A stretch of 64,000 nt of DNA. It comes from Myxococcota bacterium. Its GTDB lineage: Bacteria; Myxococcota_A; UBA9160; SZUA-336. The DNA is taken from contig CBDFGR010000001.1 of NCBI GenBank assembly GCA_965247115.1, forward strand, positions 224,001 through 288,000, read 5' to 3'. The notes under the pieces were generated by a model. The model ran no database searches. It was not told where the DNA came from and saw only the letters and a program-made list of their open reading frames with translations. Positions 51,594 to 55,364 of the stretch are shown here, in pieces. Every line of letters begins with the position of its first letter. Position 1 is the stretch's first letter. The position numbers were made by a program, and so were the translations under genes.

Positions 51594-51674
<81 letters not shown>

Positions 51675-51678
51675 TGTA

Positions 51679-51709
51679 AGCCCCCGGAATCATTTAGATT
51701 CCGGGGGCT
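51679..51709 (+). terminator. 13-bp hairpin after tRNA-fMet (terminator or att-associated)
   Basis: AGCCCCCGGAATC-ATTTA-GATTCCGGGGGCT; lacks a clear U-tract. Confidence 0.6.
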
Positions 51710-51791
51710 CTCCGCGGCTCCGCAAAGAGTGGGTCTTGGGAGTTCGTTGGGACTTTTGGTTGGAGGTCGACCCCAGGAGGATCAGTCGCGA

Positions 51792-52657
51792 ATGGCACGT
51801 CGGAAGGCACCAGGACCGCCACCGATCGAAATGCGCCAGTTTACGGAGCCCGAGCTGGTCGACGGAATCCGTAAACTCCGGCGGCGTATCGCCCAAGTCC
51901 AAGGACTCGACCCCGAAGCGATCAGCTTTGACGACGCACGGGTACACACCGTCGAGTCGAATGTCCACGTAACGATCAGAGAGGTCTTTGGCTCGAACTC
52001 GCCCGAGTTCGATGAGCACCAGTACACCACATCTGGCACGGTGGTATCAACGTGATGGATGACAACTACGTCCGGCAGGGCAAGTTTGCGGAAGGCATTC
52101 CTCAAACAGTCGCGATGCTCGAAGGCTTGGTGGAAAGGCTTGAAGAGAAGAGGAGCGATCTCGCAGATGACCGACCATTCTGGACCTCGGGCGGGCTGGA
52201 GCCGGTGACGGATTCAAGGCGTGTTTTCCTCGTTCACGGGCATGATGAAGCAGCGCGCGAGAGCGTTGCTCGGCTGCTTGAGAAGTTGGATCTGGAAGTC
52301 GTCATACTCCACGAGAAGGCGAACTCTGGCGGGACTCTGATCGAGAAGTTTGAGAAGAACGCCGACGTTGCCTTTGCCGTAGTACTCCTGACGCCGGACG
52401 ACTTCGATCGCGCTCAGGGAGAACCCGCTGAGGTCGAGGAGCATCGCGCGCGCCAGAATGTGATTTTGGAGCTCGGTTACTTCATTGGTAGGCTCGGCCG
52501 CAACCGGGTTTGTCCGCTCTATAAAGAAGGCGTTGTGCTTCCAGGCGATTTCGCCGGAGTGACCTACGTTCCGCTCGACGATAGCGGGGGATGGCAGCTC
52601 AAGTTGGCGAGGGAGCTACGCGAAGCGGGCCTAGACGTAGACCTCAATCGGATCTAG
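51792..52657 (+). pseudogene. TIR-like nucleotide-binding domain protein (CAP12/Pycsar-effector-type TIR), frameshifted near 52025
   Basis: AGGAGG RBS; VFLVHGHD, TLIEKFE, FAVVLLTPDD, RARQNVILELGYF; N- and C-parts in different frames. Confidence 0.82.
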
Positions 52658-53184
52658 AGCGAGGAAGCTCTCAGCGCTGTCTCAACTGCTGACAGTAGGT
52701 CGGCCGGCACGTCTGCTTTGCCGAGGTCTAACGGCTGCCTGTACGCTGAGCCACCGGCCCATTTGGCATAGTGCCTCGCCGTCACCGCAACGTCAGCGTG
52801 ACCGAGCTGCTGCGAGACGTAGCCGAGCTGTACCCCGACCGTGAGCAGCTGGCTCGCGAATGTGTCGCGGAGATCCTTCGGCCGTCGCCTCCCGATTCCC
52901 GCAGCCTTGCAGACGTGAGTGAAGTGGCGACTCCGGTAGTTCGAGGAGTCGGCATCGAGCACGACGATCTCGTCGGGTCCGGGGCGCCCGGCCTCGAGAT
53001 ATCGCTTCTGGAGGAGCTGGCGCAACCGCCGTGACAGCGCCACCGCCCGCGATCGCCCGCTCTTCGTCGTGCCTTCGTGGCGACCTCGTGCCTTCGTCGT
53101 CGCGATCGTGAGTCCCCGCGAAGTATCGGAGGCATCCCGCCCCCACCAGACGTCGCCCCACCGAAGCCCGAGCGCTTCGCCTAG
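52654..53184 (-). pseudogene. Tyrosine integrase A, C-terminal fragment truncated by IS
   Basis: LGEALGLRWGDV, TKSG, KDLRDTFAS, QQLGHAD..TARHY; first catalytic Arg lost at the IS junction. Confidence 0.88.
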
Positions 53185-54459
53185 CAGGCTGCTGAAAAAC
53201 TCCTCATCGAAGGGTACCTTGGGAGCGAGCCCCAAAGGGGGAGGCGTGAGAGGACAGGGGACGCTTCAGGGCGGGATGTTCAGCTACGTGTCGCTGGAGT
53301 CGCGGATTCCGGATGATCATCCGCTTCGAGCGATGCGGCGCATGGTCGACACGGCGCTGCAGCGGCTATCGCCGCGCTTCGACGCGATCTACGCCAGAGG
53401 CGTAGGGCGCCCGTCCGTGCCCCCGGAGCAGCTGCTGCGCGCCCTGCTGCTGCAGGTGCTCTACACCATCCGGAGCGAGCGGCAGCTGGTGGAGCAGCTG
53501 GAGTACAACCTGCTGTATCGCTGGTTCGTGGGTCTGGAGCTTGACGAGGTGGTGTTCAGCGCCACGGTGTTCACGAAGAACCGAGACCGGCTGCTCAAGG
53601 GCGAGATTGCCGAGCACTTCTTCGACGCAGTGCTGGAGCAGGCCGAGACCGAGGGATGGGTGTCGTTGGAGCACTTCACGGTAGACGGGACGCTGATCGA
53701 GGCGTGGGCGAGCCAGAAGAGCTTCGTACGGAAGGACGAGGAACGGAGAGACGACGATGACCCGGGCAACCCGACGGTGAACTTCCGAGGCGAGAAGCGG
53801 AGCAACCAGACGCATGCGTCGACGACGGATCCCGACGCACGACTCGCCGGTATGAGAGGCCAAGGCGCCCGACTCGCGTACCAGGGACACGTGGTGACGG
53901 AGAACCGGAACGGCTTGGTGGTCGCGGCGAAGCTCACGCAGGCGTCGGGATATGCGGAGCGCGAAGCGGCGCTCGAGATGGTGGAAGGTCTGGGAGGCGG
54001 GCGTCGGAGGACATTGGGCGGAGACAAGGGCTTCGACACGAAGGGGTTCGTGGAAGAGCTTCGAGAGTTGGGCGTGACCCCACACGTGGCGCAGAACACG
54101 ACGAATCGACGCAGCGCGATCGACGGGCGGACGACGCGCCACCGGGGCTACGAACTGAGTCAGCGTTTTCGCAAACGGGTGGAAGAGGTCTTCGGCTGGA
54201 TGAAGACCGTGGGGCTGATGCGCAAGACCCGACACCGCGGCACGGATCGGGTCGGCTGGGTCTTCACCTTCACGGCCGCAGCCTACAACCTGATCCGGAT
54301 CCGCAAGCTGCTGGAGGCCACGTAGGTCATGTGCGAAACCGCCCCGCGATCAGCGGAGCCCAAGACCGGTTCGAACCGGGAATCGCGCCCCGCCCCTCGG
54401 CCGGTGAACCCCCTCGTCGGAAGGACCACCCCTCAACCAGTCACTTTCTCCGCAGCCTG
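53185..54459 (+). mobile_element. IS5-family insertion sequence (1275 bp), flanked by CTAG
   Basis: Terminal IRs CAGGCTGCTGAAAAA / TTTCTCCGCAGCCTG; CTAG at 53181-53184 and 54460-54463. Confidence 0.93.
53246..54325 (+). CDS. IS5-family DDE transposase
   Basis: FSYVSLESRIPDDHPLR, GRPSVPPE, VDGTLIEAWAS, GGDKGFD, RKRVEEVFGW. Confidence 0.95.
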   Translation: MRGQGTLQGGMFSYVSLESRIPDDHPLRAMRRMVDTALQRLSPRFDAIYARGVGRPSVPPEQLLRALLLQVLYTIRSERQLVEQLEYNLLYRWFVGLELDEVVFSATVFTKNRDRLLKGEIAEHFFDAVLEQAETEGWVSLEHFTVDGTLIEAWASQKSFVRKDEERRDDDDPGNPTVNFRGEKRSNQTHASTTDPDARLAGMRGQGARLAYQGHVVTENRNGLVVAAKLTQASGYAEREAALEMVEGLGGGRRRTLGGDKGFDTKGFVEELRELGVTPHVAQNTTNRRSAIDGRTTRHRGYELSQRFRKRVEEVFGWMKTVGLMRKTRHRGTDRVGWVFTFTAAAYNLIRIRKLLEAT

Positions 54460-54972
54460 CTAGGCGCGGTCGAGCTACTGATCCGACCAGGAGAGATCCG
54501 CGCACTCAACGTCGCCGATTACAGAGACGGGAAGATCACCGTCGCGCACGCGATCAAGGGACCGAACGCGGATTCTCCCAGACGGGGGACCAAGACTGGC
54601 GAGTACCGCGTGCTCCCGGTGAGCGACCGCCTCGCGGAGTGGCTCGAGCGCCATGTACCGCGTGACCCGGCGAACCTGCAGGCGCCGCTCTTCATGAACG
54701 ATCGCGCGAACCGCGCCCAGAACCCGGAGGGTCGCTGGCTGGCGAATGCAGTCTGGGCTGAGTGGAAGCGTGCGGTGAGCGCAGCGGGCCTACCGGACGT
54801 CAAGATGTACGAGGGCACGAAGCACTCGACCGCGACAGCGCTGAGGCGCGCTGGAGTGCCCCTGGACGTGATCCAGCAGGCGGCTGGGCATAAGGACAGG
54901 CGCTCAACCGAGAGATACGCGAAGCTGGCTGAGGAGGGAGTGGTAGAAGCGCTCAGGCGGCTGAGGCCATGA
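54460..54972 (+). pseudogene. Tyrosine integrase B, C-terminal fragment truncated by IS
   Basis: LIRPGEIRAL, TKTG, YEGTKHS, AGHKD..STERY; ends 65 bp from the tRNA-Leu 3' end. Confidence 0.85.
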
Positions 54973-55037: not shown

Positions 55038-55364
55038 TGGTGCCCGGGGCGGGATTTGAACCCGCATGGGGCTTTCGCCCCGAAGGATTTTACGCTTTCC
55101 CCGACGGTTTCCCGTCGGCGCGGACTATCTCTTCACCCACGTGGGGTGCCGGGCGCTCGTCGGCGGGGATTATTGTTGGGACTCACCCCGCTAGTCTCTG
55201 CACCTTCCGCGGAACCTCTGCCCTCCGCGGCTTGGCTCAGGATTACCATGGCCGGAACACCCGGCTGTAGGCTTCCCTGAATTCACCCGGTTTCTTACCC
55301 GCGCGTTGCCGCGCGGGAGACCCGTCCTCGAGTCCTCTGTGTCTGCCAGTTCCACCACCCGGGC
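55038..55364 (-). tRNA. tRNA-Leu(UAA), intron-containing (exons 55364-55331 and 55092-55038)
   Basis: Spliced product: GCCCGGG acceptor, GAGGA-CT|TAA AA-TCCTT anticodon arm, long variable arm GGGGCGAAAGCCCC, GGTTCAAATCC, ACCA. Confidence 0.93.
55093..55330 (-). ncRNA. Group I self-splicing intron (238 nt, tRNA/IC3-like)
   Basis: P GAATTCAGGGAA, Q AATCCTGAGCCAAG, R TGCAGAGACTAG, S AAGAGATAGTCC; 5' exon ends in U, intron ends in G; GNRA-capped P2 and P9. Confidence 0.92.

What the first reader, a model, noticed from the sequence alone, without database searches (positions are those of the whole stretch)
55038..55364. Group I intron in tRNA-Leu(UAA) inserted after U33, in an apparently non-cyanobacterial genome
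Seen: a tRNA split by 238 nt containing P/Q/R/S elements, P1 (exon GGACU with intron GGUCU, U.G at the splice site), P3 (CCGGGTG/CGCCCGG), P7 (GACTA/TAGTC), an extra hairpin after P7 and a terminal G. There is no room for a homing endonuclease. The only U|...G| junction that restores a 7-nt loop places the intron between U33 and U34. Established: the classic cyanobacterial/plastid trnL(UAA) intron sits one base later (U34/A35). The intron also begins with a second GAGGAC that could pair with 3'-exon UCCUU (P10-like). Inference: an independent insertion that standard tRNA annotation would likely miss, and splicing may gate decoding of rare UUA codons in this GC-rich genome.
Basis: partly seen in the sequence, partly recalled or inferred. 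Interest (0 to 1): 0.8.

Follow-up and report, generated by a model that had tools for sequence, protein, structure and literature searches.

The report
Self-splicing intron inside leucine tRNA gene
This bacterium's only detected gene for the tRNA that reads the rare leucine codon UUA is split, one base before the anticodon, by a 238-base group I intron that likely splices itself out; the site is probably already catalogued, but the intron carries an extra hairpin shared with phage introns and absent from the classic cyanobacterial tRNA intron.

Summary
Observation confirmed. A 238-nt group I intron (Rfam RF00028, 68.2 bits) splits tRNA-Leu(UAA) between U33 and U34. This is the only U|…G| cut that gives a 7-nt loop, and compensatory changes in P1 and P9.0 fix both ends. 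It is not rare: 24 of 32 genomes of this Myxococcota-like family carry it, 2 have the intronless gene, and I collected 67 distinct U33 tRNA-Leu introns. Earlier AI notes of this scan found the site in phages and file it as Williams's 2020 class Leu.2Ug; I could not see that table. The same pair occurs in 48 distinct viral-contig introns and is likely the P11 pseudoknot of subgroup IA1, whereas the classical tRNA introns are IC3. The scan noted this architecture before in tRNA-Ile genes. Trees favour an origin separate from the cyanobacterial intron, without rejecting a shared one. Splicing is not shown, and nothing supports regulated UUA gating. An aside in phage contigs, a candidate natural self-circularising group I ribozyme, looks more interesting than the finding.

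The parts
55331..55364 (-). tRNA-Leu(UAA) exon 1 (34 nt), ending at U33; its last five bases are the 5' strand of P1
55093..55330 (-). Group I intron, 238 nt, no ORF; omega-G at 55093
55038..55092 (-). tRNA-Leu(UAA) exon 2 (55 nt): anticodon UAA, long variable arm, T arm, encoded CCA
55318..55335 (-). P1: U33 (55331) pairs with G (55322) as the splice-site wobble; first intron base C pairs with G 55323
   Evidence: U.G in 67 of 67; the +1 pair is C-G in 64, G-C in 2, U.G in 1
55298..55317 (-). P2 hairpin with GNRA loop
   Evidence: 7 of 8 pairs with two-sided changes
55149..55290 (-). P3 (55290-55284 with 55155-55149), seven uninterrupted pairs, enclosing P4, P5, P6/P6a and P7.1
55220..55223 (-). 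GGGC at the end of P6a; predicted partner of the P7.1 loop (P11-like pseudoknot, inferred)
55122..55198 (-). P7 (55198-55192 with 55127-55122) with the guanosine-binding G-C pair (55196/55123); encloses P8 (55148-55134)
   Evidence: invariant in 26 of 26 aligned
55163..55191 (-). P7.1 (P7 extension): 6-bp stem and 17-nt loop of motif UGAG-N-CCCAAC-R-AUA; loop bases 55182-55179 predicted to pair with 55223-55220
   Evidence: motif in 59 of 67; same motif in 65 viral contigs
55094..55121 (-). P9.0 (55121-55120 with 55095-55094) and P9 hairpin with GAAA loop; no P9.1
   Evidence: 10 and 13 of 26 sequences with two-sided changes in the two P9.0 pairs
54331..54972 (+). Context, not part of the intron: tyrosine-integrase fragment ending 66 nt from the tRNA 3' end, cut off on its 5' side by a multicopy DDE insertion sequence (ORF 53069-54325)

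Best explanation
A compact group I intron interrupts the only detected tRNA-Leu(UAA) gene after U33 and likely removes itself from the precursor RNA, which would restore the anticodon loop that UUA decoding needs. Predicted steps, from established group I chemistry: the end of exon 1 leaves the anticodon stem and pairs with the guide in P1; free guanosine bound in P7 attacks after the U33.G wobble; P9.0 places the terminal G in the same pocket; exon 1 attacks there and joins exon 2. The P7.1 loop likely pairs with GGGC at the end of P6a, as the P11 pseudoknot of subgroup IA1 does, and would brace the core. The intron has no mobility gene and looks inherited within one family, with occasional absence. 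It likely belongs to a P7.1-bearing lineage that also holds tRNA-Thr and tRNA-Lys U33 introns and phage capsid-gene introns, rather than descending from the cyanobacterial U34 intron. It is most likely a tolerated passenger, not a switch. Shown: sequence, boundaries, pairings that covary, distribution. Inferred: splicing, P11, ancestry, neutrality.
For: RF00028 68.2 bits; the only RF00028 match in the genome. No other tRNA-Leu(UAA) among 52 intron-free calls in a 98% complete genome. Unique U|G| cut. On a 26-sequence alignment 98.9% of 1626 cells pair and 29 of 63 pairs show two-sided changes; 0 of 500 shuffles reach this, and slid partners pair 32-48%. Across 67 distinct U33 introns the wobble is U.G in 67, the +1 pair covaries, and P9.0 pairs in 63 and 60 of 67 against 0 and 7 of 67 when slid. 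Intron in 24 of 32 family genomes, intronless gene in 2 of 32, no full match in 387 other genomes of the phylum. GGG in the P6a window in 59 of 59 tRNA introns with the CCCAAC loop against 13 of 51 without, and in 48 of 48 distinct viral-contig introns found by the loop motif alone. L163, L181, L229 and the Thr/Lys introns have a different P7 extension and lack the exposed GGG. P11 is described as a P7ext-P6b pseudoknot characteristic of IA1 (PMC13580324, PMC12088405; passages). All 50 P7.1-type introns lie on one side of a 99/94 branch against 44 others, with P7.1 itself left out of the columns.
Against: No spliced junction in contigs of 8 public runs filed as RNA; two contigs of close relatives bridge the 3' junction unspliced. 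P11 has no two-sided change: its bases are nearly invariant, the base facing the loop G is A in 6 of 59 tRNA and 4 of 48 viral introns, and the sequences are related, so the co-occurrence is not independent. The 99/94 branch is lost when the 14 P3 columns are dropped, and the AU test never rejects joining this lineage to the cyanobacterial Leu introns (p 0.058, 0.31, 0.137, 0.18) or the fMet introns (p 0.07-0.27). Only about 100 columns were available, and the viral rows were picked by a motif that overlaps 8 of them. P9.1, part of the IA1 brace in PMC12088405, is absent. No tRNA-Ile2 or IA1 reference intron was in the trees.
Confidence: 0.78

Rival explanations
1. Splicing is regulated and gates translation of UUA-containing genes, like the bldA tRNA of Streptomyces (recalled). 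A possible route is that the P7.1 loop pairs with the 5' splice junction instead of P6a and blocks P1.
For: UUA is the rarest sense codon: 630 of 1,432,687 codons, 0.42% of Leu codons, in 536 of 3,721 crude gene calls. No second UUA reader was found. The loop-junction duplex is -11.2 kcal/mol against -5.7 for the P11 pairing. 24% of UUA codons lie in the first tenth of high-GC3 genes against 13-18% for four control codons.
Against: Two family genomes have the intronless gene. The same loop occurs in phage capsid-gene introns with unrelated exons, so its match to this junction is probably chance, and 47 of 59 tRNA copies carry a C that breaks one of the pairs. UUA frequency falls steadily with GC3, as ATA and CTA do. 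The start codons behind the 5' bias are crude.
Confidence: 0.07
2. The intron descends from a U34 tRNA-Leu intron that slid one base: a guide change moved the wobble from U34 to U33 and a U was gained behind the terminal G.
For: Same host gene, and the two guides differ at the base facing U33. Grouping with cyanobacterial Leu introns is not rejected; core identity to them is 71-77%. Sliding looks plausible for another U33 lineage: L211 (identical in L360, L361) starts with U and nests among viral U34 introns at 99/89.
Against: None of the 30 U34 Leu introns in the anchored set has a P7 extension. Core identity is higher to Thr and Lys U33 introns (78-88%, 84%). Joining with all U34 Leu introns is rejected (p 4e-5, 0.007), although that set is itself not one clade, which weakens the test.
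Confidence: 0.1
3. The precursor is cut one base later to give tRNA-Leu(CAA), or is not spliced and the gene is dead.
For: The first intron base is C in 64 of 67. Williams 2020 reports 72 Leu.3Cg introns with C at -1. No spliced RNA was seen.
Against: That cut needs a terminal U; P9.0 covariation fixes the terminal G; the first base is G or U in 3 of 67 with its partner changed to match. An intact tRNA-Leu(CAA) exists and UUA would have no reader. Conservation across 24 genomes argues against decay.
Confidence: 0.04

Closest known systems
'Leu.2Ug' setting of bacterial tRNA group I introns (nomenclature of Williams 2020, bioRxiv 10.1101/2020.01.27.920355)
   Same: By that paper's naming rule (whole main text read) this intron is Leu.2Ug: tRNA-Leu, loop position 2, U at -1, G at omega. 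Its length is below the ~400 nt above which the paper expects protein genes.
   Different: Table 1 and Fig. 3 are pictures and the supplement was not available, so I did not see Leu.2Ug listed; that rests on earlier AI notes. The main text says nothing of P7.1, P11, this family or more than one origin per site.
Classical cyanobacterial/plastid tRNA-Leu(UAA) intron (Leu.3Ug, subgroup IC3; GISSD PMC2238919 passages)
   Same: Same host tRNA, similar P4-P7 core (71-77% over 102 anchored columns), no ORF.
   Different: Inserted one base later; about 2 nt instead of 36 nt between P7 and P3; different P3, P7 and P9 region; separate 100/99 clade.
Cyanobacterial tRNA-fMet intron (fMet.2Ug, one of Williams's four classical classes)
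   Same: Same loop position, after U33; also begins with C (L356, L516, L517).
   Different: Different tRNA, no P7.1, 73% core identity, separate 100/100 clade.
Subgroup IA1 introns with P11, e.g. Candida albicans mtLSU (PMC12088405, PMC13580324; passages; Jaeger, Westhof and Michel 1991 seen as a title in reference lists only)
   Same: A P7 extension whose loop is complementary to bases at the end of an extended P6 stem.
   Different: No P9.1, 238 nt, bacterial tRNA host; P11 is inferred here, not probed. No sequence comparison with an IA1 intron was made.
tmRNA T-loop group I introns (PMC11915505; passages)
   Same: Compact, mostly endonuclease-free introns in a tRNA-like RNA; a P7.1 region is named; several founding events at neighbouring sites are proposed.
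   Different: Other host RNA and loop; not compared by sequence here.

Membership tests
Group I intron | Match to the family covariance model above its gathering score | tested here: met
   RF00028 68.2 bits against 50
Group I intron | P1 with U.G at the 5' splice site | tested here: met
   U.G in 67 of 67 relatives; neighbouring pair covaries
Group I intron | Core helices P3-P9 with the P3/P7 pseudoknot and G-binding pair | tested here: met
   P7 invariant, so shown by pairing, not by covariation
Group I intron | Terminal G placed by P9.0 | tested here: met
Group I intron | Guanosine-dependent splicing and exon ligation | not testable with these tools
   No joint in contigs of 8 runs, which is uninformative at that depth
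Group I intron | P10 between guide and start of the 3' exon | tested here: inconclusive
Leu.2Ug setting (Williams 2020) | tRNA-Leu host, loop position 2, U at -1, G at omega | tested here: met
   naming rule
Leu.2Ug setting (Williams 2020) | The setting is listed in that paper's table or seed alignment | not testable with these tools
   Table and figure are pictures; earlier AI notes say yes
Classical Leu.3Ug intron | Insertion between U34 and A35 | tested here: not met
   reference loci L351, L352, L505-L507 show the later cut
Subgroup IC3 (classical tRNA introns) | No peripheral element between P7 and P3 (recalled; seen in the Leu, fMet and Arg references) | tested here: not met
   36 nt here, about 2 nt in the references
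Subgroup IA1 | P7 extension (P7.1 / P7ext) | tested here: met
   Stem pairs in 59 of 59 with G-C to A-U changes
Subgroup IA1 | P11 pseudoknot between the P7 extension and P6 | tested here: inconclusive
   Co-occurrence in 59 of 59 and 48 of 48, no two-sided change
Subgroup IA1 | P9.1 packing on the P7 extension | tested here: not met
   Only 7 nt between P9 and the terminal G; so 'works like IA1', not 'is IA1'
Subgroup IA1 | Best score with the IA1 subtype covariance model | not testable with these tools
   GISSD subtype models are not held
Mobile (homing) group I intron | Intron-encoded endonuclease | tested here: not met
   Longest stop-free stretch 61 codons; the 67 relatives are 189-366 nt, though my extraction was capped at 420 nt

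The most novel reading that the evidence does not exclude
A P11-braced ribozyme of phage capsid-intron stock was fixed in an essential tRNA of one bacterial family and became a switch: its P7.1 loop toggles between the P11 brace (splicing on) and the 5' splice junction (splicing off), setting the supply of the only UUA-reading tRNA and so the translation of UUA-rich, mostly foreign-looking genes.
Probability: 0.05. Interest if true: 0.7.

Novelty: new variant of a known kind. Interest (0 to 1): 0.3.

Why it matters
For annotation: most genomes of this family appear to lack tRNA-Leu(UAA) unless introns are allowed. For intron evolution: naming tRNA introns by site hides their ancestry. U33 of tRNA-Leu(UAA) holds at least two intron lineages (one clade rejected, p 0.003 and 0.042), and this one looks built like phage mRNA introns rather than like the IC3 tRNA introns. 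If P11 holds, a 238-nt ribozyme without P9.1 is a small test case for how that brace works. None of this changes how tRNA introns are understood, hence the modest score.

Tried and rejected
RNA evidence: 8 of the 18 runs listed as RNA or possibly RNA were laid. All are contigs; no joint, no circle; contigs that join exon 1 to UAAAA belong to other organisms' tRNAs (their 3' exons differ), so they say nothing on splicing. First genome-wide pattern was too loose: 7 of 118 loci were real, and only 11 of 64 parts were scanned. Relaxed ARAGORN intron search gave thousands of false calls and was ignored. My automatic junction classifiers gave wrong isotypes for some loci; I replaced them by explicit junction patterns and dropped 5 spurious rows before counting. 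30 of 80 metagenome loci had no split-tRNA call; of 20 of them checked with Rfam, 6 had intron matches, 4 cut by contig ends. Trees: 96 of 118 curated introns were aligned after thinning near-copies; L169 was dropped for a 1-nt deletion, L185 and L404 as long branches, and the P7.1-type Leu rows were cut to 18. Annotated phages gave 4 weak partial matches and plasmids none. No sigma-70 promoter or terminator passed the scan, though a TATAGT-like hexamer precedes the gene. The idea that the P7.1 loop is conserved to pair with the exon junction was set aside because phage introns with other exons share the loop. The viral counts for U33 (2 contigs) and U34 (about 180 estimated) used patterns of different stringency and are not a ratio. 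Literature searches for this site, this family or P7.1/P11 in tRNA introns returned only Williams 2020 as a direct precedent; the library lacks most subscription journals, and the supplement of that preprint, unseen, bears directly on novelty.

Full report
What is there. On the minus strand, window 55364-55038 holds a tRNA gene in two pieces. Rfam's group I model matches the 238 nt between them at 68.2 bits, above the gathering score of 50, and this is the only such match in the genome. ARAGORN misses the gene by default and calls tRNA-Leu(UAA) with a 238-nt intron when introns are allowed. Among the 52 intron-free tRNA calls there are Leu genes for GAG, CAG, CAA and UAG but none for UAA, in an assembly rated 98% complete. 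The tRNAscan-SE 2.0 paper says that program was not designed to detect group I introns (PMC8450103, passages).

Boundaries. Of the eight cuts that restore a 7-nt loop, only the one after U33 has U before the intron and G at its end. Comparison fixes both ends independently. In 67 distinct U33 tRNA-Leu introns the wobble is U.G in all; the first intron base and its partner are C-G in 64, G-C in 2 and U.G in 1; and the two P9.0 pairs next to the terminal G hold in 63 and 60 of 67, against 0 and 7 when slid by one. On a 26-sequence alignment 98.9% of cells pair, 29 of 63 pairs show two-sided changes, no shuffle of 500 reaches that, and slid partners pair 32-48%. The structure was drawn from the window's sequence, which favours it over the slid control.

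How common. The intron is in 24 of 32 genomes of the window's family, 15 of 17 good-quality ones. Two have the intronless gene; six, five of them at most 85% complete, show neither. In 387 other genomes of the phylum there were only three matches of 22-32 nt (two candidates scored per genome), and the five non-family genomes with RF00028 hits in a sample of 150 had no tRNA call at those hits. Named records with introns identical to family copies are titled Myxococcota, Myxococcales, Deltaproteobacteria or Proteobacteria, which gives the phylum-level label. A second lineage exists outside the family: 5 of 61 genomes around G070 hold the split gene, others the intronless one; its 16S rRNA is 84% identical to the window genome's, rank unresolved. 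A metagenome scan gave 80 loci, 46 classed as U33 tRNA-Leu introns, and two viral contigs carry one. U34 tRNA-Leu introns were also found outside cyanobacteria, in proteobacterial genomes and viral contigs.

Is the site in print? Williams 2020 (whole main text) tested the eight loop positions in 80,413 bacterial assemblies and raised four classical settings, all marked IC3, to 21. U33 is classical for tRNA-fMet. The table and figure that list the new settings are pictures and the supplement was unavailable. Three earlier AI notes of this scan name Leu.2Ug as one of them, one with a seed name. I take that as likely (about 0.85) but unchecked.

The extra hairpin. The window intron has 36 nt between P7 and the 3' strand of P3; the cyanobacterial Leu, fMet and Arg references have about 2. 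The insert is a stem with a 17-nt loop whose motif is kept in 59 of 67 U33 Leu introns. The same motif, searched alone, hit 65 viral contigs, none with a split-tRNA call; four of six downstream exons tested are major head proteins. Every one of 48 distinct viral copies and 59 tRNA copies has a run of GGG at the end of P6a, against 13 of 51 tRNA introns without the loop. Introns of the same lineage with another P7 extension lack the exposed run. A pseudoknot between the P7 extension and P6b, called P11, is described as characteristic of subgroup IA1 (PMC13580324, PMC12088405; passages). I infer P11 here. Against it: no two-sided change, an unpaired A in 10 of 107 copies, related sequences, and no P9.1. 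So the intron works like a stripped IA1 ribozyme; membership is not shown. tmRNA introns are also reported to have a P7.1 region (PMC11915505, passages), and P7.1 is among the features used to class group I introns (PMC3984707, section read). An earlier AI note reached the same P11 reading for a tRNA-Ile intron in another genome; I saw it after recording mine.

Ancestry. On about 100 anchored core columns, without P1 and P7.1, all 50 P7.1-type introns (18 Leu U33, 4 Thr U33, 1 Lys U33, 1 Arg, 26 viral) fall on one side of a 99/94 branch against 44 others. Core identity to the window intron is 78-88% for the Thr introns and 71-77% for cyanobacterial Leu. The branch depends on the P3 columns, and the AU test does not reject grouping with cyanobacterial Leu (p 0.058-0.31) or fMet (p 0.07-0.27) introns. 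Independent origin is therefore favoured by build and tree, not proven. One clade for all U33 Leu introns is rejected (p 0.003; 0.042 without P3): four short, AT-rich ones lack P7.1, and L211 nests among viral U34 introns (99/89), a candidate for true one-base sliding.

Function. Splicing is needed for a UUA reader to exist, and UUA occurs in about 14% of crude gene calls, so the intron is probably active. Contigs of eight RNA runs showed unspliced pieces from close relatives and no joint; they cannot separate RNA from DNA and settle nothing. Gating has no support beyond the codon's rarity: intronless relatives exist, and UUA use drops with GC3 as other A-ending codons do. A mild 5' bias (24% against 13-18%) and a strong computed duplex between the P7.1 loop and the splice junction keep the idea alive at low odds.

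Surroundings. An integrase fragment ends 66 nt from the tRNA's 3' end and is cut off by an insertion sequence with 28 near-identical copies; the last 29 nt of the tRNA recur, inverted, about 237 kb away. The gene has served as an integration site, which is unrelated to the intron.

Verdict. Real, well formed, family-wide, and probably of a catalogued site; a variant by its P7.1/P11-like build. Interest 0.3. The candidate self-circularising ribozyme in phage contigs, listed under Noticed in passing, deserves its own look. Other papers consulted without bearing on the verdict: PMC13168695, PMC7902536 and PMC6125680 (passages).

Noticed in passing
L577:612-903 (+), L607:611-907 (+); also L578, L590, L593, L594, L603, L604, L606, L634, L641, L642, L644, L654 (IMG/VR contigs): Candidate natural self-circularising (permuted) group I ribozyme. 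A P7.1-type core (RF00028 58-72 bits in 5 of 5 tested) starts just behind an AT-rich, promoter-like stretch with no 5' exon, P1 hairpin or P2. A guide GGCC at its 5' end matches a GGCU that lies 75-80 nt AFTER the likely terminal G, and that segment folds as a rod joining its two ends. 14 distinct loci among 25 pattern hits; 12 have GGCC/GGCU and 2 the compensated GACC/GGUU; the other 11 failed my core pattern and were not examined. It would yield a 75-80-nt RNA circle, like the engineered cis-splicing design of PMC11417360 (abstract). One paper search listed natural permuted group II introns (PMC8637638) but no natural group I case; no earlier scan note matched. Untested.
   Followed up: partly
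L358:1500-1761, L533, L534, L511 (tRNA-Thr UGU); L542:1425-1694 (tRNA-Lys CUU): Group I introns after U33 in tRNA-Thr and tRNA-Lys with a P7.1 hairpin of the same stem but another loop tip; G070 holds both a Leu and a Thr U33 intron.
   Followed up: partly
L211, L360, L361 (identical intron); L155, L162, L185, L193: Short AT-rich U33 tRNA-Leu introns without P7.1, several inside tRNA clusters. L211 begins with U, giving two adjacent U.G pairs in P1, and nests among viral U34 introns: a possible intermediate of one-base intron sliding.
   Followed up: partly
L495; L504: Proteobacterial introns at apparently non-classical settings: tRNA-Arg(UCU) after U34, with a P7 extension, and tRNA-Thr(UGU) after position 36.
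   Followed up: no
window 55038-55066 and G000:C1:41864-41892 (L546): Exact 29-nt copy of the tRNA 3' end in inverted orientation about 237 kb away, beside ORFs that look phage-like by eye: probably an att remnant moved by an inversion or misassembly.
   Followed up: partly
window 51598-54972: Between tRNA-Met and tRNA-Leu: a CAP12/Pycsar-type TIR domain gene (52052-52657), a second integrase fragment (52654-53235, minus), and a DDE insertion sequence with 28 near-identical copies in the genome.
   Followed up: no
L545 (G002:C28:281577-281713); L007 and L547 (G021): G002 has a second, truncated copy (exon 1 and the first 108 nt of the intron, with single-base deletions) 31 kb downstream of the full gene, and its upstream DNA resembles the window's; G021 has two full copies 87% alike.
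   Followed up: partly
L018 (G022:C5): This copy has CCC in place of AGA at the start of P7, which removes the guanosine-binding G; possibly inactive or an assembly error.
   Followed up: no
L017, L020, L023, L025, L154, L210: The same short palindromic unit is inserted, sometimes in tandem, in the P5, P6 or P8 loops of family introns and accounts for lengths up to 366 nt.
   Followed up: no
window 55181 (P7.1 loop): This loop position is U in 45 of 48 viral introns but C in 47 of 59 tRNA-Leu introns; C would strengthen the P11-like pair and weaken pairing with the splice junction.
   Followed up: no
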